This document shows, piece by piece, positions 37,478 through 48,102 of a stretch of 64,000 nt of DNA (position 1 is the stretch's first letter; each line of letters starts with the position of its first letter). The stretch is from the NCBI GenBank assembly GCA_045546155.1, contig JAZQCG010000002.1:74533-138532 (forward strand). Reading direction: 5' to 3'. The notes beneath the pieces are model-generated. The model was not told the DNA's origin and ran no database searches. It saw only the letters and a program-made list of their open reading frames with translations. The DNA comes from Candidatus Enterousia sp. (GTDB lineage: Bacteria; Pseudomonadota; Alphaproteobacteria; Rs-D84). Both the position numbers and the translations under genes were made by a program.

Positions 37478-38002
37478 ATGGCTATATACGTATTCTCAGA
37501 TCCGCATTTTGATTCAGAAAAAATTATCGCAAATGGCGAACGTCCGTTTCGCAATGTTGCGCACATGAATAAAACACTGATTGAAAATTATAATTCAGTG
37601 GTTCAAAAGCAAGATATTTGTTATTGGCTGGGGGATGTTATGTATGATGCATCCAAAGAAAAAGTTGCAGCAATATTGCGCCAATTACGCGGTCGCAAAT
37701 ATTTAATCCTTGGGAATCACGATCGTGGACATTCTGAAAAATGGTGGCTAGATGCAGGGTTTGACAAGGTGTTTTCGCATCCTGTTTATATCGCAACGCA
37801 ATATATAATGCTATCGCACGAACCACTGGAAGAATTTGGCAAATCATATCCAATTGCAAATATTCATGGCCATATTCATATCCAAGACTATGACTTTAAA
37901 AATCATGACCAGTGCATAAATGTATCGGTGGAAAAGACAGGGTACAAGCCTGTTTTAATGCAAAATCCATTTATTAAAAAACTTCGCGAATTTAGCAAAT
38001 AA
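37478..38002 (+). CDS. calcineurin-like metallophosphoesterase
   Basis: DPHFD, GDVMYD, GNHD, HGHIH motifs. RBS AAGGGGGA. 3-nt gap after the AbiEii-like gene. Confidence 0.7.
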   Translation: MAIYVFSDPHFDSEKIIANGERPFRNVAHMNKTLIENYNSVVQKQDICYWLGDVMYDASKEKVAAILRQLRGRKYLILGNHDRGHSEKWWLDAGFDKVFSHPVYIATQYIMLSHEPLEEFGKSYPIANIHGHIHIQDYDFKNHDQCINVSVEKTGYKPVLMQNPFIKKLREFSK

Positions 38003-38007
38003 TTAAA

Positions 38008-38040
38008 AAAAATCCCCCAATCGGGGGAATTTTTTTTATT
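38008..38040. terminator. bidirectional terminator AATCCCCCAATCGGGGGAATT
   Basis: Seen in sequence. Confidence 0.65.
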
Positions 38041-38428
38041 TGTTTGTGTTCTTTTCTGCAGATGTTGCTGCCAAGTCTTCGACGATACGCGCCTTTTTAC
38101 CTGACAACCCACGCAAGAAGAACAACTTAGCACGACGTACTTTACCGATACGAACCTTTTCGATTTTTTCAATCGATGGGCTGTACAGTGGGAACTTGCG
38201 TTCTACACCAACACCGTATGATTCACGACGTACTGTAAAGGATGCATTATTGCCCATGCCGCCATCGCGTGCGATAACAACACCTTCGAAAACCTGGATA
38301 CGGAATTTGTCGCCGTCTTTAATTTTAACGTGAACCTTTAATGTATCCCCAGCTTTGAAGTTTGGGATTTTTTTGTCGCCCTTTAATTTTTCAATCTGGG
38401 CTGCTTCGATTTTTTTAATAATGCTCAT
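38036..38428 (-). CDS. rplS: 50S ribosomal protein L19
   Basis: [36 protein letters not shown]... Start trimmed from ORF 38584. Confidence 0.9.
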
Positions 38429-38430
38429 TT

Positions 38431-39111
38431 TTAGTTTTCCTTTATTAAGTCCGGTCGACGTTCTTTGGTTATGTCGACCGATTGTTGTTTCCGCCACCGT
38501 TCGATATTGCCGTGGTGACCGGACAGCAGGACTTCTGGGACACTTTGTCCACGCCATACTGACGGGCGGGTGTATAACGGCCATTCAAGCCCCCCGATTT
38601 CGAAACTTTCATTTTCTGTGGTGTCTGTTCCACCGTGAACTACATTATCCATCACGCGAACGCAACTGTCAACAAAAACTTGGGCTGCAATTTCGCCGCC
38701 GGACAATATATAATCACCAATGGATAATTCCATTATACCATATTGTTCAATAACGCGTTCATCAATTCCTTCGTACCGACCACACAGCAGGGTGTATGTT
38801 GCATCTTGGTCTGCGATAAATTCGCGTACAATTTTCTGGTTCAGTGTTTTGCCACGTGGTGAAAAATATATAATTTTCCCTGGGTTTTTAATAGAATCCA
38901 ATGCGTCGCCTAAAACATCTGGGCGCATAACCATGCCTGCGCCGCCGCCGAACTGGGTGTCATCAACGCTGCCGTAATTATTGATGGCAAAATCCCGAAT
39001 GTTAATCACATCATACGACCAAATTCCACGCTCCAATGCGCGACCAACCACGCCACCCGACAGTGTGCCTGGAAACATTTCTGGAAAAATAGTCAGTATA
39101 TTAAAGTGCAT
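38431..39111 (-). CDS. trmD: tRNA (guanine37-N1)-methyltransferase
   Basis: [13 protein letters not shown]...SPRG, the SPOUT knot region. Confidence 0.9.
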
Positions 39112-39112
39112 T

Positions 39113-39388
39113 TTAATGAACTTTCCCTTTTTCAGCATTAAATCGACAGTTTGTACACATACATTTTCCAATGTCGAACATAATGTTAACTGTTTCAACT
39201 GATGCTGCTTCTGCTAAACGAACAGCGATTTTATCTGGTTCGTTGGCCGGGGTAATAACCTTGGTGTCAATCCCAGCACGATATACCCGCACAACAGGAC
39301 AGCCTGCATCGTATTCCTTTTCTGGCATATTGCATTTTACAACAAACTTTTTACTAATTGCATCAAATTGAAATGTCTTGTTTGGCAT
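39113..39388 (-). CDS. small Cys-containing hypothetical protein inserted between rimM and trmD
   Basis: 91 aa with Cys pairs (KC..GCP, CMCTNC). 1-nt gap to the trmD start. Confidence 0.4.
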   Translation of the reverse strand: MPNKTFQFDAISKKFVVKCNMPEKEYDAGCPVVRVYRAGIDTKVITPANEPDKIAVRLAEAASVETVNIMFDIGKCMCTNCRFNAEKGKVH

Positions 39389-39397
39389 AATTAATCC

Positions 39398-39862
39398 TTA
39401 GTTTACGTATATAATTTTTGCATCCATATCAACGTTTGCGCCAACAAATGATACCATGTCGCCATTTTCCAGCTCTAAAATATCACCTGCGCCATAGTTT
39501 TGTATGCATGCCACGCGCCCAATAATATTGCCACGCTGATTCACGGTCATTCCGATTAAATCAGTCTGGTAATATTCTTGTTCGTCCAGTTTTGGTAAAT
39601 CTTCGCGCCCAATAAACAATTCCGTTCCACGCAGTGTTTCTGCAGCATTTCGGTCATCAAAGCCGTTTACCTTGGCGATAATGATGGTTGAGTTTGGAAT
39701 AACGCGTACAAACCTAAAATCTTTGGATGTAAAACGATCGGAAATCACGTTAAATTTTTTAAAGTCCGATGGTGTATCAGAATATGTCTGAATACGAACT
39801 TCGCCCCGAATTCCCTGGGGGGCAACAATTTTTCCAACCAAGATTTTTTCGTTATTTTTCAT
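39398..39862 (-). CDS. rimM: 16S rRNA processing protein RimM
   Basis: ILVGKIVAPQGIRGEVRI... (PRC barrel). Confidence 0.85.
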   Translation of the reverse strand: MKNNEKILVGKIVAPQGIRGEVRIQTYSDTPSDFKKFNVISDRFTSKDFRFVRVIPNSTIIIAKVNGFDDRNAAETLRGTELFIGREDLPKLDEQEYYQTDLIGMTVNQRGNIIGRVACIQNYGAGDILELENGDMVSFVGANVDMDAKIIYVN

Positions 39863-40184
39863 TTTGTTTTAATTGTTTGATTATATTTTCATAACGTATT
39901 TTTCGAATACACTGTACCTCAGACGTCAGTGGGCATTCGTTACCACTGTCCGATGTAACCATAATACAGTTCATCTTATGTGTGGCCATATAGTCAACCG
40001 CATCACGCCAAGAAGTAAAACGCCAGTCTTTTTGTCTGCAATATGTACCGTCGTACGGACAATCAAATGCCGAACTTGCGCGTCCGTCTTTGTGCAAAGT
40101 GGGTCTCATTATAAACTTTCGTTCATCTGCAAGGCTGCCACCACTAAGCATCATATCTGGATTAACTAATTTATATTCTGACAT
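39852..40184 (-). CDS. small Cys-containing hypothetical protein (110 aa) within the rpsP-rimM interval
   Basis: ORF overlaps the rimM start by 11 nt. Confidence 0.4.
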   Translation of the reverse strand: MSEYKLVNPDMMLSGGSLADERKFIMRPTLHKDGRASSAFDCPYDGTYCRQKDWRFTSWRDAVDYMATHKMNCIMVTSDSGNECPLTSEVQCIRKIRYENIIKQLKQNEK

Positions 40185-40209
40185 AATCTTATTCCAGTCT
40201 GATTACAGA

Positions 40210-40428
40210 TTATCTTTGTTTTTGCAGTTGTTTTTCTTTGTGTTCGCGTAATTTTATGCAATCGCTTGCATATGCAGGGCACAATCCACCGGTTAAAAAT
40301 ACAACTGGTCTGTTTTCATGCATCGCTTCATACATCTGTCGATAAAACTCTTCGCTACGCTCTGTCTGGGTACATTCCAAATCATTTGCGCTTGGGCATC
40401 TGTCACCAATACACCAACTCTTTACCAT
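40210..40428 (-). CDS. small Cys-rich hypothetical protein (72 aa; possible Zn ribbon)
   Basis: C.GDRCP...EC...GGLCP....DC. Confidence 0.4.
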   Translation of the reverse strand: MVKSWCIGDRCPSANDLECTQTERSEEFYRQMYEAMHENRPVVFLTGGLCPAYASDCIKLREHKEKQLQKQR

Positions 40429-40432
40429 GATG

Positions 40433-40708
40433 CTACCTTTGTCGCTCGTATGTATGCGGTATTTTTAATAATTCCTGCTTTATTTGCATAAAGTAATCAT
40501 GCAAATTAATACCGTTTTCCATGGCAAAGGACATCATGTCATCAATATTGTCCAAATAACAATCGTGCATAAGGGTTTTAAGTTCTTTGTCTTGAAACCA
40601 TACCTCATGAAAAGCCCTGTGAATAAAGGCCTTGCACATATTAAGACGACTTATTGCTTTTGGTGCCTTTGCCATTGGATAAACGTTTCGGAATAAATTA
40701 TTCTGCAA
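40433..40708 (-). CDS. small hypothetical protein (91 aa) immediately downstream of rpsP
   Basis: ORF overlaps the rpsP stop by 11 nt. Confidence 0.4.
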   Translation of the reverse strand: MQNNLFRNVYPMAKAPKAISRLNMCKAFIHRAFHEVWFQDKELKTLMHDCYLDNIDDMMSFAMENGINLHDYFMQIKQELLKIPHTYERQR

Positions 40709-41147
40709 CCGCTTCGGTTGTTTCTTCGGCTGCTGGTGCAGCTGCTTCCGCTTCTGCAGCTGCCTTAGCGGCGGCTTCTGCTGCGGCTTTTTCTTCGGCG
40801 ATTTTTGCCAGCTTTTCAGCTTTGTCTTTAATCTTCATCTGTGTTTTTTCAGATTGCAGATGTTTCTTTGTCTGAACTGGAATCGCCTTTGCTTTTACCA
40901 AGCCAGCTTTGGCCAAGAATTTATGTACACGATCAGATGGCTGTGCACCTTTTGCCAACCATGCTTTTACTTCGTCAATTTTCAATGTAACGCGTTTGTC
41001 GCTGTCTTTGGCCTGCATTGGGTCATATTTACCAACAACTTCCAGAACATTACCGGAATTACGTGCATTGCGTGAATCTGTCACAACAATGTGATAGTAT
41101 GGGCGTTTTTTTGCACCAAAACGAGCCAAACGAATAACAGTTGCCAT
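40698..41147 (-). CDS. rpsP: 30S ribosomal protein S16 with Ala/Glu-rich C-terminal extension
   Basis: MATVIRLARFGAKKRPYYHIVV... Confidence 0.9.
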   Translation of the reverse strand: MATVIRLARFGAKKRPYYHIVVTDSRNARNSGNVLEVVGKYDPMQAKDSDKRVTLKIDEVKAWLAKGAQPSDRVHKFLAKAGLVKAKAIPVQTKKHLQSEKTQMKIKDKAEKLAKIAEEKAAAEAAAKAAAEAEAAAPAAEETTEAVAE

Positions 41148-41377
41148 AATTTACTCCTTTTTATTTATAACTGTTTTAACCACAAAGAAAACCGCCATCA
41201 AGGACGAAACTCGTCGGATGATGTACCACACGCATACTGCGAACTGGTGTTATAAAAATGGCAATCTTTGGGATTTGCGCGCCTATTATGAACCAAAAAA
41301 TCAAAAAAGTCAAATGGTTATTAAAAAAAACGCCACAATCCGAAAATAAATCCGACCACAAGGGTCGGCTATATTCT

Positions 41378-41451
41378 TGGTGCGGGCGAAGGGAATCGAA
41401 CCCTCGCCTAAAGCTTGGGAAGCTTTCGTTCTACCATTATACTACGCCCGC
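41378..41451 (-). tRNA. tRNA-Gly (anticodon CCC)
   Basis: 74 nt. Acceptor GCGGGCG/CGCCCGC. Anticodon loop TTCCCAA. T-arm GGTTCGATTCC. Terminator hairpin at 41351..41370. Confidence 0.8.
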
Positions 41452-41497
41452 GACGTATGGCGAAATATTATCTTATTTTGTCATCGATGTCCAGACT

Positions 41498-43231
41498 TTA
41501 TTTCTGGCGTCCACGCAACATATCTGCCAATGGTTCTACGATATAAGAATTACGCTGTTTATCAACATTGGCTAATTTCGTCCCCAGTATTTCCAATTGT
41601 GGCGACCATACTGCATATTTTTCAATATACTGACGTGCCATTTCTGGATTTTTTGACAACTGAATATCAATCACATCGCGCAACATTTTTTTACCACGTG
41701 CGACAACTGCATCAAAATCTATGACTAAACGATTTGATGAATCCAGACGAATTGCACCACACTCAAATAACATATTATGTTGCATAATATTGCGTTTTGC
41801 ATGGGCGCGACTAAAATTTGCACCCGGATATAAATAAGCAATCAACCATGATGTAATCAGCTCTTGTTTTTGATTTGGTGTAAAGAATCCAGCACGCACC
41901 AATTCGTCTAGCATCGCAATCGAGCCTGCATCTGCCTTGTGTTCTTCGATAATATTTTTATATTCGCCCAGTGCTTCCAGATCATCTTTTGGGCCTAACG
42001 TATGCATGTTTTCGTGCAAAATTGTAAAGTCGTGCAGGGCACGCACCGAAAAATATTTATGAAATTCCGGTGCCAGCAATGCATTAATCTTTTCATCCAT
42101 CCCATTGCCATATTTGCACTGGCGCATTTGTTTTAAATAGACTGTCCGATGACCACCGCCTGTTTGAACCGCTAATTTATCTGCATTAGGCAGGTTAAAC
42201 GCCAATGTTATCTGGCTACGATATGCCGCATTGTGTCCGCTAACCGATACGACATCAACGTCGACCATTGTTTGTTTTGTGTTTGTCCCCAGGACCTGTT
42301 TGTATTCATCTGCGCGTGGCATTTTGGATGCCAGCATGGGCAGATATTGTTTTATTTTTAACAAATAATCCGTGCCGGCCGTATCGACAATACCAACCGT
42401 CGCCCCCAAGTTGTCTTTTGCATATGGTGTAATTCCGCGCGCATCCAACATAGATTTTAATTTTGGATTTTGTAATACTGTCGGCGTCATCGCATCGTCA
42501 TAGCATTCGCGCCCCAGTGTAAATTCCAATGGCCCCGATTGAAGGGTTGCCCATTTTTTGTCGGCTTCACAATCAGCCCATGGCCAGTAATTCATCAATG
42601 CTGCGGATTGCAGTGTCAGATATTCTTTGAAATCGAAATTTTCCGTGCTTACAGCGGCGGCCTGTAATGCATGTGCTGCCGAACGAAAATCAAATTTGAA
42701 CGCATTTGTATAATCAACAGCTTTCAATTCATCGCCAAAACGCTTTACAATGGTGCGTTGATTTAATATTTCACGTACTTCTTCATCCTTATAGCCGCTT
42801 TCCAACATACGAATTAAAATGTCATGAAATTCATCAACTGATAAATTATATGGATACAAACCGCGTCCCAAACGAGGCTCAACATCATTGGTTAATGCAA
42901 CCGGTGCGCCTGATTTTTCATGTGCAAATATTCCGCGTTGCCCACGAAATAATTTCTGCGTTAATTTTATATCTTTAAAGGATTGGCGCGATTCTAGAAA
43001 CAGTTCAAAATCTAAATTATAAGGATGGTCCAGTTGTAACGCCACACGATCGATAATATCAGACGCGCGCACCAACCATTTTAATGCAGTTTTTTCCCGT
43101 TCGGGCAGGGCATTGTATTGTTCCGCATCAACACCCAACATAGTGTATGGTGTAAAGGCTTCGGGCGATGTACGCTGAACCAATTCATTATGATCATATG
43201 CAATTTTATACAAACGTCTTATCATTGACAT
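41498..43231 (-). CDS. HExxH zinc-metallopeptidase-like protein (577 aa; HENMH plus downstream EEHKAD, reminiscent of the M49/DPP-III zinc-binding pair)
   Basis: Motifs seen in sequence. Last gene of a five-gene coupled operon. Confidence 0.45.
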   Translation of the reverse strand: MSMIRRLYKIAYDHNELVQRTSPEAFTPYTMLGVDAEQYNALPEREKTALKWLVRASDIIDRVALQLDHPYNLDFELFLESRQSFKDIKLTQKLFRGQRGIFAHEKSGAPVALTNDVEPRLGRGLYPYNLSVDEFHDILIRMLESGYKDEEVREILNQRTIVKRFGDELKAVDYTNAFKFDFRSAAHALQAAAVSTENFDFKEYLTLQSAALMNYWPWADCEADKKWATLQSGPLEFTLGRECYDDAMTPTVLQNPKLKSMLDARGITPYAKDNLGATVGIVDTAGTDYLLKIKQYLPMLASKMPRADEYKQVLGTNTKQTMVDVDVVSVSGHNAAYRSQITLAFNLPNADKLAVQTGGGHRTVYLKQMRQCKYGNGMDEKINALLAPEFHKYFSVRALHDFTILHENMHTLGPKDDLEALGEYKNIIEEHKADAGSIAMLDELVRAGFFTPNQKQELITSWLIAYLYPGANFSRAHAKRNIMQHNMLFECGAIRLDSSNRLVIDFDAVVARGKKMLRDVIDIQLSKNPEMARQYIEKYAVWSPQLEILGTKLANVDKQRNSYIVEPLADMLRGRQK

Positions 43232-43243
43232 TTTTACGTTCCT

Positions 43244-44311
43244 TTATTTCTGATTTGCCTTTACAATGTCTGCGACATATTCTGTAATCCGGTCAACCGC
43301 ACCACGAAAATCAAATGCCATCGACAAAGGGCATTTGTCTGACACGTTTCCCGTACTGCAAATCACGCATTGTGCCCAATCCCCACTTTGCAATGCCGTA
43401 CATTGTTTCTTTGCCTTGGTTGCAATAAATTCTTGTTTTTTAAAACACGTTAAAAACGCTTCAATATCATTATATTTTAAATCCATCAAGAATTTAAACA
43501 CAGGACAAATTCGCGCCGCCAATTCTTTGTCTTGCATATATTCTTGATGTTTTTTTGCCTGACGCTGGGCAATACGTTCTTTGTTTGCCTGATAGTATAA
43601 TCGTTGTTGCGCCAGTCTCGCATCTTTGTTTGCATAATAGTTTGCACGGGTTCGCGCATTATACATATCTTTCTTTTTTTGATACGATTGCTTTTTGCGT
43701 TCTGCGACAACATTGGCGTTATTTTTGCGATATGCTGTATGATATGCTTTCTGTTCTGCCAAATGTTCTGAACGCCATTTTTTATAATACAAGCGTATTG
43801 TATCACGATGTTCTAAATAATAGTCCTTCATTTGTTCGGCCAGCCTGGCTTTATTTTCAACATAGTATTTATGGCGATATGTTTTGCGTTTGTTTCGTTT
43901 TGCATCTGCAACAGTCTTTAATTTTGTATGCATCGCGTCAATATTATACGGCATACAAGGCGTAGTGCTTTTAATCAAATTATTCATCGCCAACAGACGA
44001 TGGCTTGTTATCTTAAAGGGTAGTATTTCTGGCAACACCCGACACAGTCTGTCATCAATATGCACTGCACCCGACATAACATCCATAAATTGTTGGGATG
44101 TAAAAATATTTTGCATTGATTCTGCGACTAGAAAATCATCAAGTGTTTTTTGTTCACCAGAATCAAACAAAAACCATTCTACAAAAACATCAGCTAGTGT
44201 ATACACTGTATTAGGAACAGAACCACCCATATGCCACGACAGTGTCAATCCATCATCATATCGCAACGATGTATAACTTGTGTCTGAAAAAATTTGCGCC
44301 AATCCGTCCAT
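43244..44311 (-). CDS. Tyr-hendecad-repeat protein with C-terminal Cys-rich module ending ADIVKANQK (paralog of 44323..44931)
   Basis: About ten 11-residue repeats of YYxxNKxxxxx type, then CPVFKF...C..C...C. Confidence 0.5.
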   Translation of the reverse strand: MDGLAQIFSDTSYTSLRYDDGLTLSWHMGGSVPNTVYTLADVFVEWFLFDSGEQKTLDDFLVAESMQNIFTSQQFMDVMSGAVHIDDRLCRVLPEILPFKITSHRLLAMNNLIKSTTPCMPYNIDAMHTKLKTVADAKRNKRKTYRHKYYVENKARLAEQMKDYYLEHRDTIRLYYKKWRSEHLAEQKAYHTAYRKNNANVVAERKKQSYQKKKDMYNARTRANYYANKDARLAQQRLYYQANKERIAQRQAKKHQEYMQDKELAARICPVFKFLMDLKYNDIEAFLTCFKKQEFIATKAKKQCTALQSGDWAQCVICSTGNVSDKCPLSMAFDFRGAVDRITEYVADIVKANQK

Positions 44312-44322
44312 TTATTCACCAG

Positions 44323-44931
44323 TTATTTTTGATTTGCCATTACAATATCGGCGGCATGTTCACGGATTGTTGCGGCTGCATTTTCAAATTCAAACACGTG
44401 TGGCATCGGACATTTGCAAGCCATTTGTTTGCCCGACATTGAACAATCTTTGCAAATCGGACACATACTGTAATCCCCTGCAATAATCGCGGGACATTTT
44501 GCACGATGTGCCAGATTAGCATTTGGTTTGTATTTAGTCGTATATAATTCAATATTTTTCAGACGAATTTTATCAACAAATTTAAAAGCAGGGCACATAA
44601 CACGTGCGTTTTTTCTTTCTTGTTTTGCCTGGATGCTTTGTGCACGCAATTCATCGCGATGTTCGGTGTAATATTGTTTAAAGGATTCTTTGTGCTCGTG
44701 ATAATAAGCACGACATCTTGCGTTGATTCTGTCTTTGTTTTTTAAACAGTATTCCTGGATTCTGTCCTTGTACTTTTCGCGACTTTCACGTGCGTGCATG
44801 CGATTTTTTTCGCGCAGGGTATCCACATTGCGTGCATAATATTCACGCGCGGCTTGTTGTCGTGCTTCGCGGTTTTTTGCGTATCTTTCGCGGGCACGTT
44901 GACGACGTAAATCCAAGTTTTTATACGCCAT
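44323..44931 (-). CDS. Tyr-hendecad-repeat protein with C-terminal Cys-rich module ending ADIVMANQK (paralog)
   Basis: Repeats REYYARN / RAYYHEH / KQYYTEH, then CPAFKF...CPICKDC...CKCP. Confidence 0.5.
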   Translation of the reverse strand: MAYKNLDLRRQRARERYAKNREARQQAAREYYARNVDTLREKNRMHARESREKYKDRIQEYCLKNKDRINARCRAYYHEHKESFKQYYTEHRDELRAQSIQAKQERKNARVMCPAFKFVDKIRLKNIELYTTKYKPNANLAHRAKCPAIIAGDYSMCPICKDCSMSGKQMACKCPMPHVFEFENAAATIREHAADIVMANQK

Positions 44932-44936
44932 AATTT

Positions 44937-45785
44937 TTATCTCTTTTTTTGTAATAATTCATCATATGCTTGCGCAACGGTTTTATTATCCATTGCAGTT
45001 TTGTATTTGTAATTAAGTATAGCTTGGTTGGTGTTTGTGATTTCAAGGCAATCGCTGTCGCCAATATTTGGGTGCCCACTTGGGATATGCTGGGTTAAAT
45101 TATTATCTGCCGCACGTCCCAAACGTGACAACGCACCAATTTCATAAAACATAACGTTCAAATTATCGCCTTTAGACATAACAATAGTGCCATCTGTATC
45201 CATCTGACCGACATGTATTCCGCGCTGTCTAAGAATGTTTGCAAACTCTTGGTACTTATATTGTGATGCGGGTGTATTTAATCCAACAAAAGACACCGGA
45301 ATCGCCGCAGATAAATATTGACTGTTCATAATTTGATTAACAATGTTGGCCGCTGCGTTCAAGTTATCGTGATATTCATCAATAGATATATCAAGTGATA
45401 TTTGGCGGTCGTGTTTGTGCGCAACATCAGCCAGCGATTTTAGAATACTGCCCGCCAGTATTAATTTGTTGCCCCACAGCGCATTAGTCTTAAAGCAGGC
45501 CGACATGTCATTGTTAGCGCAGATATCCGCGACCATTGGGATGTATTTATGTTGCCCAATATAGTACGGTGCCATTGATTCGCCACCTGTAAACACAACG
45601 TAATCCCAAACCGGAATGCCCATATCTTTGTACTGACTGATATATTTTTCAATCGTATCAATGGGCATCAGGTTAAAGGCTTCTTTTGCGTGACTACGTT
45701 CGCAACAATGTGCACAACACAAATTACACCAATTTGTAATCTTAAGTGCCAAATTTACCCGTGGTATAACGTCTTGCCAAATCAT
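44937..45785 (-). CDS. radical SAM superfamily enzyme
   Basis: CxxxCxxC (ITNWCNLCCAHCC) plus FTGGES glycine-rich SAM motif. 282 aa. Confidence 0.65.
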   Translation of the reverse strand: MIWQDVIPRVNLALKITNWCNLCCAHCCERSHAKEAFNLMPIDTIEKYISQYKDMGIPVWDYVVFTGGESMAPYYIGQHKYIPMVADICANNDMSACFKTNALWGNKLILAGSILKSLADVAHKHDRQISLDISIDEYHDNLNAAANIVNQIMNSQYLSAAIPVSFVGLNTPASQYKYQEFANILRQRGIHVGQMDTDGTIVMSKGDNLNVMFYEIGALSRLGRAADNNLTQHIPSGHPNIGDSDCLEITNTNQAILNYKYKTAMDNKTVAQAYDELLQKKR

Positions 45786-46915
45786 TATTTTTCTACCGGT
45801 ATTTGCAACAACTGCTTTGGATAAATCAAGTCTGGGTTTTCAATATTATTGCGTTCTGCAATAATGCTGAACAAAATACCACGGCGCAGGAAATTACGCG
45901 CAATAATCCACAAGCAATCACCACGACGAACGGTATAGAAAGTATCGTCGTCGCCGGTCATCTCTGGCATCACAAAATCATGATTCACAGTTGCGACCGT
46001 GCGACCATCACCATCATGCAAGCGAACCGATAATTTGTATTCTTTGCCACTTTCCAGCTCGCCAATATCCGCACCCAAACCAAAGTGATGATGATCAGAT
46101 ACGCGTGCAAAGCCCATATATTTATCGTTCAATGACAAAGACACACGCAGACGTGGCAATGCATCACCGGTCACAACGATGCGACCATTATCCAGATAAT
46201 CAATCTTGGATACTGATAAATCACCATCGCGCAACATTGATGGCGATTGCAACAATGTACTGCCATCACGTGTCATCAACAATGACACAGAATTTTCTGC
46301 GCCGGCTTCGGACACATAAACAAAAACCTTGTCTTCGGATTTGATTGCAGGATCTGCACCCAACAAAGAAATTGTATAATTGCCGGCTTCAAATGCCTTG
46401 ACCGGTGCATATACGAATTCCCCAGCAGAATCAGTGCGTTCTGTTGCGACAATTTTACCGTTCACAACAATAGATATATTCTGGTGTGGTAACCAACGTC
46501 CCGCAATAATAATATGACCTTCTTTTTCAATGCGAACAATGTCAAACGATGGCGCGGTTGATGTATCAATGGCCTTAACCACTGGTTCTGGGATATTTGG
46601 CACAATCAACACACGTTGCGGGGCAGGTGTTCTAATAAACGCCACCCAAATTGCGATAAATATGACAACCAACGCGCACAGAATCGGAAACCAATATGCG
46701 CCAATTGTGCTGCGACGTTCGCGGGCGCGTTCGACATTTTTCTTTGCATTGGATGTTTTATCAGAATTCTTGCATGCAAACTTATCAATCTTTTTTAGAA
46801 AGTCGCGCGTAAAATTACGACGGTTTTTTAACCACGCATTTTGCTTTGCGATTGCATCATCAATCATAGAATCTGTAGACTGTTTTTTCTTTGAATTTTT
46901 ATCGTTTTTTGACAT
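45785..46915 (-). CDS. bitopic membrane protein with C-terminal LysM peptidoglycan-binding domain
   Basis: Basic N-terminus, one TM (YWFPILCALVVIFIAIWVAFI), and LysM (YTVRRGDCLWIIARNF...LIYPKQLLQIP). Stop overlaps the rSAM start as TAATG. Confidence 0.6.
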   Translation of the reverse strand: MSKNDKNSKKKQSTDSMIDDAIAKQNAWLKNRRNFTRDFLKKIDKFACKNSDKTSNAKKNVERARERRSTIGAYWFPILCALVVIFIAIWVAFIRTPAPQRVLIVPNIPEPVVKAIDTSTAPSFDIVRIEKEGHIIIAGRWLPHQNISIVVNGKIVATERTDSAGEFVYAPVKAFEAGNYTISLLGADPAIKSEDKVFVYVSEAGAENSVSLLMTRDGSTLLQSPSMLRDGDLSVSKIDYLDNGRIVVTGDALPRLRVSLSLNDKYMGFARVSDHHHFGLGADIGELESGKEYKLSVRLHDGDGRTVATVNHDFVMPEMTGDDDTFYTVRRGDCLWIIARNFLRRGILFSIIAERNNIENPDLIYPKQLLQIPVEK

Positions 46916-47019
46916 AGTTGCGCCCTTATATTTTTATTCTAGACAAAATGTAGCAAATTATATTTCTTTGTCAACTTATTTATGGTATAATTTACCCCAG
47001 AAATGTAAAGGATACAGAT

Positions 47020-48102
47020 ATGAAAAAGAAAAAAATTGGTATAATGACAACTGGTGGCGATTGCAGTGGACTGAACACCGTAATTCATCGTGTTATTCGC
47101 GGTGCAAAATTACGTAATTGGCGTGTAATTGGTATACTTGATGGCACAGACGGATTGTGTGACACACCACGCACAATTGAATTAACCGAAGACGTTTTGC
47201 CAATCGAAAACGCCAGACTTTCGGGCAGTTTTCTGCACAATGGTCACGCAGGCGCATTGAATTTTGAAACCGCCGTTGAACGTAACAAGGTTGCACAATT
47301 CAATAAACAACTGCGAAAATCATTGGCAGAATTAAAATTAGATGCGCTGATATTAGTTGGTGGCAATGGCAGTACTTCGCTTGCCTGGGCAAATCGTGAA
47401 ATTTATCAAGACCTGCAATTTATCTGTATTCCAAAAACAATTGATATGGACATGCCGTTAACTGACCGCACAATTGGATTTGATACCGCAGTTCAGCAAC
47501 TGACATCCTTCTGTGATCAATTAATGCTTACCGCGCGCAGTCATCATCGCTGGTTCGTGGTCCAGGCAATGGGACGCGATTGTGGCAATCTGGCATTAAA
47601 CGCCGGGGTTGCGACCGGCGCGACCGCGATATTGATTCCAGAAATCAAATTTAATATCGATGACTTAGTCGCACATATTAAAAACGCACCAACAGATTAT
47701 GGTATCATCATGGTGTCTGAGGGGATAACACTGCGCGGGCATTCTGGAAAACCCGCCGATATGATTTCGCGCAAGCTAACCGCGGCCGGAATCACAAACC
47801 GCACCGCATTCCCAGAACACACCCAACGAGCAGGGGACACAACCGCCTGTGACAGGATTCTAGCAACCCGGTTCGCAGATTGTGCATTACAGGCAATTGA
47901 AAACGGCGAAACATACGTTATTACAACATTGGATTGTGGCGACGTAAAAACCGTTTCTTTGTCAGAATTTGTTGCCGCCGGCGACAGTACATCTGATCCA
48001 AAAATACCAGGACTGTGCACCGCCAATGCATACGTAGACCCCGACGACCCATTACTGTCTGTTGCGCATGACATGGGTATCTATATTGGAAATTATAAAT
48101 AA
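47020..48102 (+). CDS. pfkA: 6-phosphofructokinase (PFK-A family; atypical GGNGS and PKTIDMD active-site motifs)
   Basis: MTTGGDCSGLN, MGRDCG and HTQRAG equivalents of E. coli PfkA motifs. Confidence 0.8.
   Translation: MKKKKIGIMTTGGDCSGLNTVIHRVIRGAKLRNWRVIGILDGTDGLCDTPRTIELTEDVLPIENARLSGSFLHNGHAGALNFETAVERNKVAQFNKQLRKSLAELKLDALILVGGNGSTSLAWANREIYQDLQFICIPKTIDMDMPLTDRTIGFDTAVQQLTSFCDQLMLTARSHHRWFVVQAMGRDCGNLALNAGVATGATAILIPEIKFNIDDLVAHIKNAPTDYGIIMVSEGITLRGHSGKPADMISRKLTAAGITNRTAFPEHTQRAGDTTACDRILATRFADCALQAIENGETYVITTLDCGDVKTVSLSEFVAAGDSTSDPKIPGLCTANAYVDPDDPLLSVAHDMGIYIGNYK

What the first reader, a model, noticed from the sequence alone, without database searches (positions are those of the whole stretch)
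43244..44931. Paralogous proteins built from 11-residue Tyr-Tyr repeats plus a conserved Cys module and identical C-terminal tail
Both proteins carry a central array of hendecad repeats with aromatic pairs at fixed phase, for example YYVENKARLAE / DYYLEHRDTIR / LYYKKWRSEHL and REYYARNVDTL / RAYYHEHKESF / KQYYTEHRDEL. An 11-residue period implies a straight alpha-helical solenoid or coiled coil with a Tyr stripe. Both end with CP(V/A)FKF...C..C...C..P and the tail ADIV(K/M)ANQK. The N-termini differ, 130 aa versus 10 aa. I cannot assign the repeat to any named family. The conserved extreme C-terminus could be a recognition or secretion tag, or a site processed by the neighbouring enzymes.
Basis: seen in the sequence. 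Interest (0 to 1): 0.65.

Follow-up and report, generated by a model that had tools for sequence, protein, structure and literature searches.

The report
Tyr-repeat, four-cysteine proteins beside radical-SAM enzyme
Two neighbouring genes encode uncharacterised proteins found only in a group of tiny-genome gut bacteria: they combine a 15-residue (not 11-residue) tyrosine-rich helical repeat, also seen in phage DNA-cutting enzymes, with a new four-cysteine domain, and they usually sit directly after a radical-SAM enzyme that probably acts on or with them.

Summary
The two ORFs are real paralogous genes (36% identity, E 1e-22). The repeat is real, but its period is 15 residues, not 11. Each window protein has one 11-residue spacing, and in B this comes from a 4-residue deletion.

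The repeat consensus is [KR]-x-Y-[YR]-x-x-[NH]-[KR]-[ED]-x-[ILV]. The same uncurated repeat occurs in phage HNH/EndoVII endonucleases and in Liberibacter phage SC1 gp170 (PHROG 17714).

The C-terminal module is a compact all-helical domain (pLDDT 92). Its only invariant residues across 44 diverse sequences are four cysteines. It has no sequence or fold match in Pfam, NCBIfam, PDB or BFVD. It is not a zinc ribbon.

The ADIVxANQK tail is the end of that domain's last helix. It is conserved only in close relatives, and 56% of long ORFs in the window end in K/R.

Protein A's extra 130 residues are a separate conserved orphan domain.

The family (about 64 clusters among 1.8 billion proteins) was found only in gut and rumen Alphaproteobacteria MAGs, several named Candidatus Enterousia (order Rs-D84).

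A YydG-like radical-SAM enzyme without a SPASM domain lies directly upstream in 20 of 40 loci and in at least three flanking contexts. It is the only tightly linked neighbour. Function is unproven.

The parts
43244..44311 (-). Protein A (355 aa): N-domain, then 15-residue Tyr/Asn repeats, then the Cys4 C-terminal module
   Evidence: ORF. Homologues. Architecture.
43907..44311 (-). A, residues 1-135: acidic orphan N-domain (…LADVFVEWFLFDS…FMDVMSG…ILPF…), pI 4.8
   Evidence: Alignment A5 of 29 diverse sequences. No Pfam or PDB match. pI.
43526..43906 (-). A, residues 136-262: basic (pI 10.1) array of 15-residue repeats, e.g. HKYYVENKARLAEQM, RLYYQANKERIAQRQ
   Evidence: hhalign to a Vibrio phage HNH protein gives probability 96.5%, E 7e-10.
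43247..43525 (-). A, residues 263-355: Cys4 C-terminal module (invariant C269, C304, C315, C327)
44323..44931 (-). Protein B (202 aa): repeats plus the Cys4 module, no N-domain
   Evidence: AF2 model has pLDDT 89 and is all-helical.
44614..44931 (-). B, residues 1-106: basic (pI 10.0) repeat array. One unit is shortened to 11 residues by a 4-residue deletion.
   Evidence: hhalign to Liberibacter phage SC1 gp170 gives probability 96%, E 4e-9.
44326..44613 (-). B, residues 107-202: Cys4 module (invariant C113, C146, C157, C174), a compact all-alpha domain
   Evidence: AF2 pLDDT 92.4, pTM 0.83. The four Cys are the only invariant columns in 44 sequences. No fold match.
44937..45785 (-). Radical-SAM enzyme (282 aa). 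It has CxxxCxxC at C20/C24/C27, GGE at 67-69 and one further invariant Cys (C246). It has no SPASM or auxiliary-cluster cysteines. Its stop lies 5 nt before B's ATG.
   Evidence: Pfam PF04055 at 2e-8. Profile versus PDB: YydG 1.7e-13, SkfB 1.6e-3. Conservation. Junction.
45785..46915 (-). Membrane protein with a C-terminal LysM domain. It is the first gene of the apparent operon and a syntenic neighbour in 16 of 40 loci. It is probably not part of the system.
   Evidence: Promoter-like site at 46974-46947.
41498..43231 (-). DPP III-like (M49) metallopeptidase (577 aa; HENMH … EEHKAD). It is present at this locus only in a few relatives, so it is an occasional neighbour.
   Evidence: PDB 6eom at 1.6e-25 and 5zum at 6.6e-14. 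Distribution.
41378..41451 (-). tRNA-Gly(CCC), followed by a terminator-like hairpin (41368-41352). This marks the end of the gene string.

Best explanation
A and B are tandem paralogues of a modular, cytoplasmic protein family found here only in gut and rumen Alphaproteobacteria MAGs, several of them named Candidatus Enterousia (order Rs-D84, which has reduced genomes).

The family is assembled from three modules:
1. An optional acidic N-domain of about 130 residues. A has it and B does not.
2. A variable-length, strongly basic array of 15-residue helical repeats with consensus [KR]-x-Y-[YR]-x-x-[NH]-[KR]-[ED]-x-[ILV]-x4. This is the repeat type that sits between the zinc finger and the nuclease domain of phage HNH/EndoVII endonucleases.
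3. A new compact all-alpha C-terminal domain organised around four invariant cysteines. In the model each Cys lies at the N-terminus of a short helix, and three are usually followed by Pro. This suggests (inferred) a tetra-thiolate metal site, either Zn or a [4Fe-4S] cluster.

Shown: the architecture, the period, the cysteine invariance, the restricted distribution and the gene linkage.

Inferred: the repeat array acts as a nucleic-acid-binding surface or rigid helical spacer. The proteins work with the YydG-like radical-SAM enzyme encoded immediately upstream, most likely as its protein substrate, modified in or near the Cys4 domain. The presence of several substrate-like paralogues and intragenic duplications per single enzyme gene fits this. 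The ADIVxANQK tail is simply the end of the domain's last helix, shared through paralogy.
For: Paralogy.

Modules and their shuffling:
- N-domain + repeats + Cys4 module.
- Repeats + Cys4 module.
- N-domain + repeats + Cys4 + repeats + Cys4.
- N-domain + repeats + short hydrophobic tail.

Period of 15.

Phage-type repeat:
- tblastn hits in Vibrio and Liberibacter phages.
- Phage protein sequences with zinc finger + repeats + HNH.
- PHROG 17714 hits by family members at 9e-18 and 2e-13.
- hhalign probability 96% for both window families.

Cys4 domain:
- AF2 pLDDT 92.4, pTM 0.83.
- The four Cys are the only invariant columns in 44 sequences of 18-81% identity.
- No signal peptide is visible. The repeat regions have pI about 10.

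Distribution:
- Only 64 clusters at E<=1e-3 in 1.84 billion representatives.
- All 32 genome loci are gut or rumen MAGs, nearly all labelled Alphaproteobacteria or Candidatus Enterousia.
- Order Rs-D84 genomes are reduced, mostly below 1 Mb (PMC12306168).

rSAM linkage:
- Adjacent in 20 of 40 non-redundant loci, median gap 6 bp, often with overlapping stop and start.
- Seen in the PFK-LysM|rpsP slot, the MltG|FabF slot and the L041 context.
- The closest solved relative is the peptide epimerase YydG (1.7e-13), followed by the sactipeptide maturase SkfB.

Operon structure in the window.
Against: - No direct evidence of modification, metal binding or nucleic-acid binding.
- rSAM and family gene each occur alone in the same syntenic slot. 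Family gene only: L029, L040, L001, L016. rSAM only: L052/53, L057, L060/62. So adjacency is not obligatory, and part of the linkage could be inherited synteny among related genomes.
- The Cys4 module is the most conserved, well-folded part of the protein. That is unlike hypervariable RiPP cores.
- The rSAM lacks the auxiliary cluster that YydG and sactisynthases use (PMC5682303).
- Cys-Cys distances in the model could not be measured.
- The AF2 arrangement of the repeat helices is uncertain (pTM 0.58).
Confidence: 0.45

Rival explanations
1. The neighbourhood is coincidental. The family is a stand-alone nucleic-acid-binding or structural Zn protein, perhaps derived from the DNA-binding or spacer part of a domesticated phage HNH endonuclease. 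The rSAM has an unrelated housekeeping role. Both happen to lie in variable slots of very compact genomes.
For: - Each gene occurs without the other in the same slot.
- The rSAM stands alone among housekeeping genes in several metagenome loci.
- Family genes stand alone in L007, L019, L020 and L022.
- A stand-alone HNH gene lies in the same island in L003, L011, L014, L017, L044, L069 and L070.
- The repeat is shared with phage nucleases.
Against: - The pair recurs with overlapping or near-abutting reading frames in at least three different flanking contexts, at rSAM identities down to about 33%.
- The rSAM is the only gene tightly linked to the family.
Confidence: 0.3
2. First reader's idea. 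A and B are precursors of a RiPP-like peptide or cofactor. The conserved C-terminal tail or module is modified by the rSAM, excised by the neighbouring peptidase and possibly exported.
For: - The rSAM is closest to RiPP maturases (YydG, SkfB).
- There are several precursor-like paralogues per enzyme gene.
- A DPP III-like peptidase is adjacent in the window.
- A TolC/MacAB-type exporter lies between the rSAM and the family genes in L018, L024 and L037.
- The tail is very conserved within the B clade.
Against: - The tail is part of a confidently folded helix and is not conserved family-wide.
- A terminal K/R is a trait of many ORFs in this window.
- The peptidase and the exporter are each present in only a few loci.
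- The proteins are 200-580 aa with a conserved folded C-domain. That is unlike known precursors.
- No RRE or SPASM was seen in the rSAM.
Confidence: 0.1
3. The Cys4 domain carries a [4Fe-4S] cluster. It serves the SPASM-less rSAM in trans as an auxiliary cluster or electron relay. The basic repeats deliver the enzyme to a nucleic-acid target, so the complex would be a nucleic-acid-modifying radical-SAM enzyme.
For: - YydG needs a C-terminal auxiliary [4Fe-4S] cluster that this rSAM lacks.
- There are four invariant Cys with CP motifs at helix N-termini.
- The repeats are basic and shared with DNA-cutting enzymes.
- A flavodoxin-like or a Nudix gene flanks the pair in the MltG slot.
Against: - The paralogue number is variable and C-modules are duplicated within one protein. 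That is unlike an obligate 1:1 subunit.
- Some family members replace the Cys4 domain with a short hydrophobic tail.
- The rSAM is often encoded without an adjacent family gene.
Confidence: 0.1
4. The repeat array is an extended rod, either a pentadecad coiled coil or a single stable helix. It acts as a length-variable stalk between a head (the N-domain) and an anchoring C-terminus (the Cys4 domain or a hydrophobic tail). The protein would then be a structural tether, not a nucleic-acid binder.
For: - Strict 15-residue period with a 3.75-residue hydrophobic stripe at positions Y3, N/H7, I11 and Y/R14.
- Repeat number is highly variable.
- Variants exist with a hydrophobic C-terminal tail.
- The same repeats sit as a linker between two domains in phage nucleases.
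Against: - AF2 breaks the helices at the conserved Asn/His.
- Protein B has no head domain.
- There is no evidence on oligomeric state.
Confidence: 0.05

Closest known systems
Repeat region of phage HNH/EndoVII-type endonucleases and of Liberibacter phage SC1 gp170 (PHROG 17714, 1035, 2340, 7091)
   Same: - Same 15-residue unit (…K-x-Y-Y-x-x-N-K-[DE]-K-I…), basic and helical, in tandem arrays of variable length.
- hhalign probability 96% for both window families.
- Family members hit PHROG 17714 at up to 9e-18.
   Different: - The window proteins have no HNH or EndoVII nuclease domain and no N-terminal zinc finger.
- Their own PHROG scores are weak (0.016 and 0.06).
- The flanking N- and C-domains are absent from phage collections.
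- The repeat has no Pfam model, and no published function turned up in two literature searches.
YydF/YydG epipeptide system (radical-SAM peptide epimerase with its precursor)
   Same: - The neighbouring rSAM's closest solved relative is YydG (1.7e-13 over the radical-SAM core).
- The enzyme gene is directly followed by one or more candidate substrate genes.
- A single conserved extra Cys (C246) could play the H-donor role of YydG Cys223. This is inference only.
   Different: - The rSAM scores 28.5 bits against the 300-bit cut-off of TIGR04078.
- It has no auxiliary-cluster cysteines.
- YydF is a 49-aa peptide with a protease and an ABC exporter. A and B are 202 and 355 aa with a folded, conserved C-domain.
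Pentadecad (15-residue) and hendecad (11-residue) non-heptad coiled coils, e.g. the YadA stalk and tetrabrachion (from my own knowledge)
   Same: Non-heptad periodicity with a near-straight hydrophobic or aromatic stripe. Here the stripe is 15/4 = 3.75 residues per turn.
   Different: - Oligomeric state is unknown.
- A conserved polar Asn/His sits in the stripe.
- AF2 predicts helix breaks at that position.
- The proteins are cytoplasmic and basic, not surface adhesins.
Small Cys4 metal domains (zinc ribbons, treble clefs, WhiB-like or FCL-type [4Fe-4S] domains)
   Same: Four invariant cysteines in a small domain of about 95 residues. CP dipeptides at helix N-termini are typical of metal ligands.
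   Different: - The Cys spacing is 33/11/17 in B, with no conserved CxxC knuckle.
- The predicted fold is all-alpha.
- There is no match to any PDB sequence or fold.

Membership tests
Hendecad (11-residue) helical repeat | Sequence periodicity of 11 residues (3.67 residues per turn) along the array | tested here: not met
   - The dominant lag is 15 (z 4.6). Lag 11 has family mean z 1.4 for B and 0.05 for A.
- Anchor spacing is 15 in 129 cases and 11 in 7.
- Fourier peaks lie at 7.5 and 3.75 residues.
Phage-type 15-residue YYxxN(K/R)(E/D) repeat (PHROG 17714 type) | Tandem 15-residue units matching the PHROG or phage repeat consensus | tested here: met
   - hhalign: A1 versus SC1 gp170, probability 96%, E 4e-9. 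A2 versus Vibrio phage HNH protein, probability 96.5%, E 7e-10.
- Family members P0047 and P0052 hit phrog_17714 at 9e-18 and 2e-13.
- The window proteins alone score only 0.016 and 0.06.
- Caveat: scores for repeats carry compositional bias.
Phage HNH/EndoVII endonuclease | An HNH (beta-beta-alpha-metal) nuclease domain | tested here: not met
   - No HNH hit for A or B in Pfam, PHROGs or PADLOC.
- The C-module is predicted to be all-helical.
Zinc ribbon / classical Cys4 zinc finger | Two CxxC (or CxxH) knuckles on beta-hairpins | tested here: not met
   - Only four dispersed Cys are invariant. The second Cys of CPIC is lost in P0023, P0029 and P0030.
- DSSP on the model shows helices only.
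- No Pfam, NCBIfam or PDB match.
Zinc ribbon / classical Cys4 zinc finger | Bound Zn | not testable with these tools
   Needs metal analysis of the purified domain.
RiPP precursor with YydG-type epimerase | The enzyme reaches the TIGR04078 family threshold and has C-terminal auxiliary [4Fe-4S] cysteines | tested here: not met
   - 28.5 bits against a 300-bit cut-off.
- Only one invariant Cys lies outside CxxxCxxC.
RiPP precursor with YydG-type epimerase | A short precursor with a leader and a variable core, plus a dedicated protease and exporter | tested here: not met
   - A and B are 355 and 202 aa. The C-terminal region is the most conserved, folded part.
- The peptidase and the exporter are each present in only a few loci.
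RiPP precursor with YydG-type epimerase | Post-translational modification of the neighbouring gene product | not testable with these tools
   Requires co-expression and mass spectrometry.
Radical-SAM superfamily (neighbouring gene) | CxxxCxxC cluster motif and GGE SAM-binding motif in a partial TIM barrel | tested here: met
   - PF04055 at 34.9 bits, above the 29.5-bit cut-off.
- C20, C24, C27 and G67-G68-E69 are invariant in 11 diverse homologues.
Known anti-phage defence systems (PADLOC) | A match to a defence-system protein model | tested here: not met
   Only marginal hits: pVip at 0.006 for the rSAM, JetC at 0.014 for A.

The most novel reading that the evidence does not exclude
A previously unrecognised radical-SAM protein-maturation or partner system. 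A minimal, SPASM-less YydG-like radical-SAM enzyme acts on large folded proteins, or borrows an Fe-S cluster from them. These proteins carry a new all-alpha Cys4 domain fused to a phage-type modular 15-residue Tyr/Asn/basic repeat array. That array may itself be an undescribed nucleic-acid-binding or ruler module shared with phage HNH endonucleases.
Probability: 0.2. Interest if true: 0.7.

Novelty: new variant of a known kind. Interest (0 to 1): 0.45.

Why it matters
Rs-D84 / Ca. Enterousia bacteria have genomes mostly below 1 Mb and appear to depend on partner organisms (PMC12306168). Even so, the MAGs examined here often carry this family in several copies, and half of the loci have a dedicated radical-SAM enzyme next to it.

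If the linkage is functional, it would define a new radical-SAM substrate or partner class built on a new Cys4 fold.

Independently of that, the work shows that an unannotated 15-residue Tyr/Asn repeat is shared between these proteins and phage HNH/EndoVII endonucleases. This gives a concrete, testable candidate for a DNA-binding or spacer module that current domain databases do not describe.

Tried and rejected
- **Hendecad period.** Rejected by autocorrelation, anchor spacing and Fourier analysis.
- **Zinc-ribbon or other known family for the C-module.** No hit in Pfam, NCBIfam, PHROGs, PADLOC or PDB sequences. No hit by Foldseek against PDB or BFVD. The full-length B model also gave no hit.
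- **Tail as a recurring tag.** No other copy in the window. A terminal K/R is common in this window.
- **Homology with the small Cys-rich ORFs of the rpsP operon.** hhalign probability 2.5%, so rejected.
- **Phage origin of the N- and C-domains.** Neither was found in IMG/VR.
- **DNA-level tandem repeats in the repeat-coding region.** None found.
- **No RNA family other than tRNA-Gly in 38000-48000**.
- **A short repeat HMM with hmmsearch** was too insensitive. I replaced it with regex anchors.
- **Searches that failed or yielded little.** The search for homologous proteins with the fragment alignment A4 returned almost nothing. The search for related loci with A4 failed for lack of a conserved stretch.
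- **N-domain.** No Pfam or PDB relative.
- **Literature.** Nothing was found on the repeat or on SC1 gp170 function.
Full report
**Observation**

The minus strand carries two adjacent ORFs:
- A: 43244-44311, 355 aa.
- B: 44323-44931, 202 aa.

BLASTP aligns the C-terminal 151 residues at 36% identity, E 1e-22, so the two are paralogues.

Both are real genes. B has 32 homologues at 39-100% identity and nearly constant length. A has 4 homologues in the word-indexed search and many more by profile search. Public records call all of them 'hypothetical protein'. No Pfam, NCBIfam or PADLOC family matches either protein, and the PHROG hits are marginal.

**The repeat has a period of 15, not 11**

- BLOSUM62 autocorrelation of the repeat regions, compared with 300 shuffles per sequence, peaks at lag 15 in both families (mean z 4.57 for B, 4.55 for A). 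Harmonics appear at 30 and 45.
- Lag 11 is strong only in the window's own B (z 4.35; family mean 1.40) and absent in A (z 0.09).
- The orthologue alignment explains this. Where the window's B reads HKESF----KQYY, most relatives have four more residues.
- Across 72 representatives, successive repeat anchors are 15 residues apart 129 times, 30 apart 25 times and 45 apart 12 times. They are 11 apart only 7 times.
- The consensus is [KR]-x-Y-[YR]-x-x-[NH]-[KR]-[ED]-x-[ILV]-x4.
- Aromatic and hydrophobic residues recur with periods of 7.5 and 3.75 residues. That is a 15/4 stripe running through Y3, N/H7, I11 and Y/R14.
- There is no DNA-level tandem repeat, so the array is old.
- AF2 models B as all-helical (pLDDT 89). 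It places helix breaks at several of the conserved Asn/His positions, but the overall arrangement is uncertain (pTM 0.58).

**The repeat also occurs in phage proteins**

- A tblastn search with a family repeat array against 50,697 phage records hits 33 genomes.
- The Vibrio phage proteins have the layout zinc finger + about 7 repeats + HNH/EndoVII nuclease. One of them lies next to the large terminase gene.
- Liberibacter phage SC1 gp170 consists mostly of these repeats.
- These proteins belong to PHROGs 1035, 2340 and 7091 (endonucleases) and 17714 (unknown function). Family members P0047 and P0052 hit PHROG 17714 at 9e-18 and 2e-13.
- Profile comparison links both window families to the phage repeats at 96% probability.
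- Pfam has no model for the repeat. Two literature searches found no study of it.

**The C-terminal module**

- A profile of the module (alignment A3) searched against 1.84 billion representative proteins found only 64 clusters at E<=1e-3. The module is almost always at the C-terminus. In four proteins it is duplicated together with a repeat array.
- In an alignment of 44 diverse modules (18-81% identity to B), the only invariant columns are four cysteines. A45 and D50 are nearly invariant. The four are C113, C146, C157 and C174 in B, and C269, C304, C315 and C327 in A.
- AF2 on the module alone gives a confident compact all-alpha domain (pLDDT 92.4, pTM 0.83). Each invariant Cys lies at the start of a short helix.
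- Foldseek finds nothing in PDB (best E 4.9) or BFVD (best E 4.3). PDB sequence profiles find nothing either.
- I infer a tetra-thiolate metal site (Zn or Fe-S). I could not measure Cys-Cys distances or test metal binding.

**The tail**

- ADIV(K/M)ANQK forms the last turns of the domain's final helix.
- It is nearly fixed in the B clade but diverges across the family (…LKQR, …NSK, …ENKR).
- It occurs nowhere else in the window.
- 24 of 43 long ORFs in this window end in K or R.
- The identity between A and B is therefore explained by paralogy. The terminal Lys is a trait shared by many ORFs in this window.

**The N-terminal extension of A**

- It is a separate acidic domain (pI 4.8) with conserved motifs LSEVFLEWYLFDS, FMDLMCGxAYLD and KLPF (alignment A5).
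- It has no Pfam or PDB relative.
- Some relatives combine the N-domain and repeats with a short hydrophobic C-terminal tail instead of the Cys4 module.

**Distribution**

- A genome scan with the N-domain found 32 loci. All are gut or rumen MAGs, nearly all labelled Alphaproteobacteria or Candidatus Enterousia. Two contigs are labelled Muribaculaceae.
- The window matches a sheep-colon MAG at 100% identity over the N-domain (L009).
- Enterousia belongs to order Rs-D84, whose genomes are reduced, mostly below 1 Mb, fermentative and probably partner-dependent (PMC12306168).
- Neither domain occurs in IMG/VR.

**Gene context in the window**

The minus strand carries a tight string of genes:
- a LysM membrane protein;
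- a radical-SAM enzyme, whose start overlaps the LysM stop;
- B, starting 5 nt after the rSAM stop;
- A, starting 11 nt after B;
- a DPP III-like peptidase, starting 12 nt after A;
- tRNA-Gly.

A promoter-like site lies upstream of the LysM gene and a terminator-like hairpin follows the tRNA.

**Gene context across loci**

- Across 40 non-redundant family loci, the only tightly linked gene is the rSAM. It is present in 20 loci, with a median distance of 6 bp and often overlapping frames.
- The pair occurs in the PFK-LysM|rpsP slot, in an MltG|FabF slot and in the L041 context.
- In one clade an efflux operon separates the pair by 5 kb.
- Within the same slots, either gene can also be found alone. 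The linkage is therefore strong but not obligatory, and part of it may be inherited synteny.
- LysM/PFK, a stand-alone HNH gene, the DPP III-like peptidase and a Nudix or flavodoxin-like gene are occasional neighbours.

**The radical-SAM enzyme**

- It is 282 aa, with invariant CxxxCxxC and GGE motifs and a single further invariant Cys (C246). It has no SPASM-type cysteines.
- Its profile matches the peptide epimerase YydG at 1.7e-13 and the sactipeptide maturase SkfB at 1.6e-3. No other solved radical-SAM enzyme matched at E<=0.01.
- It falls far below the YydG family cut-off.
- YydG uses Cys223 as the H-atom donor and has a C-terminal auxiliary [4Fe-4S] cluster (PMC5682303). This enzyme lacks the cysteines for such a cluster.

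**Interpretation**

Shown:
- a lineage-specific modular family: N-domain, phage-type 15-residue basic Tyr/Asn repeats, and a new Cys4 all-alpha domain;
- genetic coupling to a YydG-like minimal radical-SAM enzyme.

Inferred:
- the Cys4 domain binds a metal;
- the repeats bind nucleic acid or act as a rigid spacer, as their position in phage nucleases suggests;
- the proteins are the substrate of the rSAM, or less likely its partner.

Rivals:
- coincidental neighbourhood of a stand-alone Zn or nucleic-acid-binding protein;
- a RiPP- or cofactor-precursor reading centred on the tail;
- a Cys4 [4Fe-4S] domain acting in trans for the SPASM-less enzyme;
- a purely structural stalk.

None can be settled without biochemistry.

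**Verdict**

The claimed 11-residue period is wrong. The 'tag' reading of the tail is weak. The suspected link to a neighbouring enzyme is supported for the radical-SAM enzyme but not for the peptidase. The family is uncharacterised and of moderate interest.

Noticed in passing
window 39113-39388, 39852-40184, 40210-40428, 40433-40708 (all minus strand): Four small lineage-specific ORFs (72-110 aa, three of them Cys-rich) are inserted inside the rpsP-rimM-trmD-rplS operon. Relatives carry tandem arrays of such paralogues (three 67-70-aa copies in L015, three 94-96-aa copies in L001). One family has four invariant Cys (CPxDxxxC…C…C). None has a Pfam hit. They are not related to the Cys4 module (hhalign probability 2.5%).
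   Followed up: partly
window 41498-43231 (-): This 577-aa protein (HENMH…EEHKAD) gets no Pfam or NCBIfam hit, yet it matches the DPP III / M49 structures 6eom (1.6e-25) and 5zum (6.6e-14). It is a divergent dipeptidyl-peptidase III that current profile libraries miss.
   Followed up: partly
whole window (43 long ORFs): 24 of 43 long ORFs end in Lys or Arg (20 in Lys), and several end in …QK. This is a strong C-terminal Lys bias in this window.
   Followed up: partly
L052 1481-1792(-), L054 4684-4980(-), L060 4981-5343(-): Another family of small Cys-rich proteins (97-120 aa, ending …NQK or …KQK) lies between the rSAM (or the rSAM + family pair) and fabF in the MltG|FabF slot of related genomes.
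   Followed up: no
L035 5851-6969, L036 3513-4421, L039 198-1130: Family variants with the N-domain and many repeats, but a short hydrophobic C-terminal segment (e.g. GPVLLSLVYGVANSKQK) in place of the Cys4 module. This may be a membrane anchor.
   Followed up: no
P0072 (264 aa, from the representative search): Here the Cys4 module is followed by an acyl-carrier-protein-like segment (…GMDSLDMMEL…). This may be a fusion with the neighbouring ACP gene, or an assembly or gene-calling artefact.
   Followed up: no
L036 and L039 (contigs CAYJKO010000003.1, CAYIZJ010000059.1): Two contigs carrying family genes are labelled 'uncultured Muribaculaceae'. All other loci are Alphaproteobacteria or Enterousia MAGs, so these are probably mis-binned contigs.
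   Followed up: no
L018, L024, L037, L061, L063, L067: In one clade, a Nudix gene and a TolC/MacA/MacB-type efflux operon sit between the rSAM and the family genes. In the MltG slot, a Nudix or a flavodoxin-like gene lies next to the rSAM.
   Followed up: partly
L003 1676-2104, L044 3952-4374, also L011, L014, L017, L069, L070: A stand-alone HNH endonuclease of about 140 aa with a very basic tail recurs in the same LysM|rpsP island. This is notable because the phage versions of the repeat are fused to HNH domains.
   Followed up: partly
L018, L030, L033: In several MAGs the N-domain and the rest of the family gene lie in separate adjacent ORFs. These are possible frameshifts, pseudogenes or assembly errors.
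   Followed up: no
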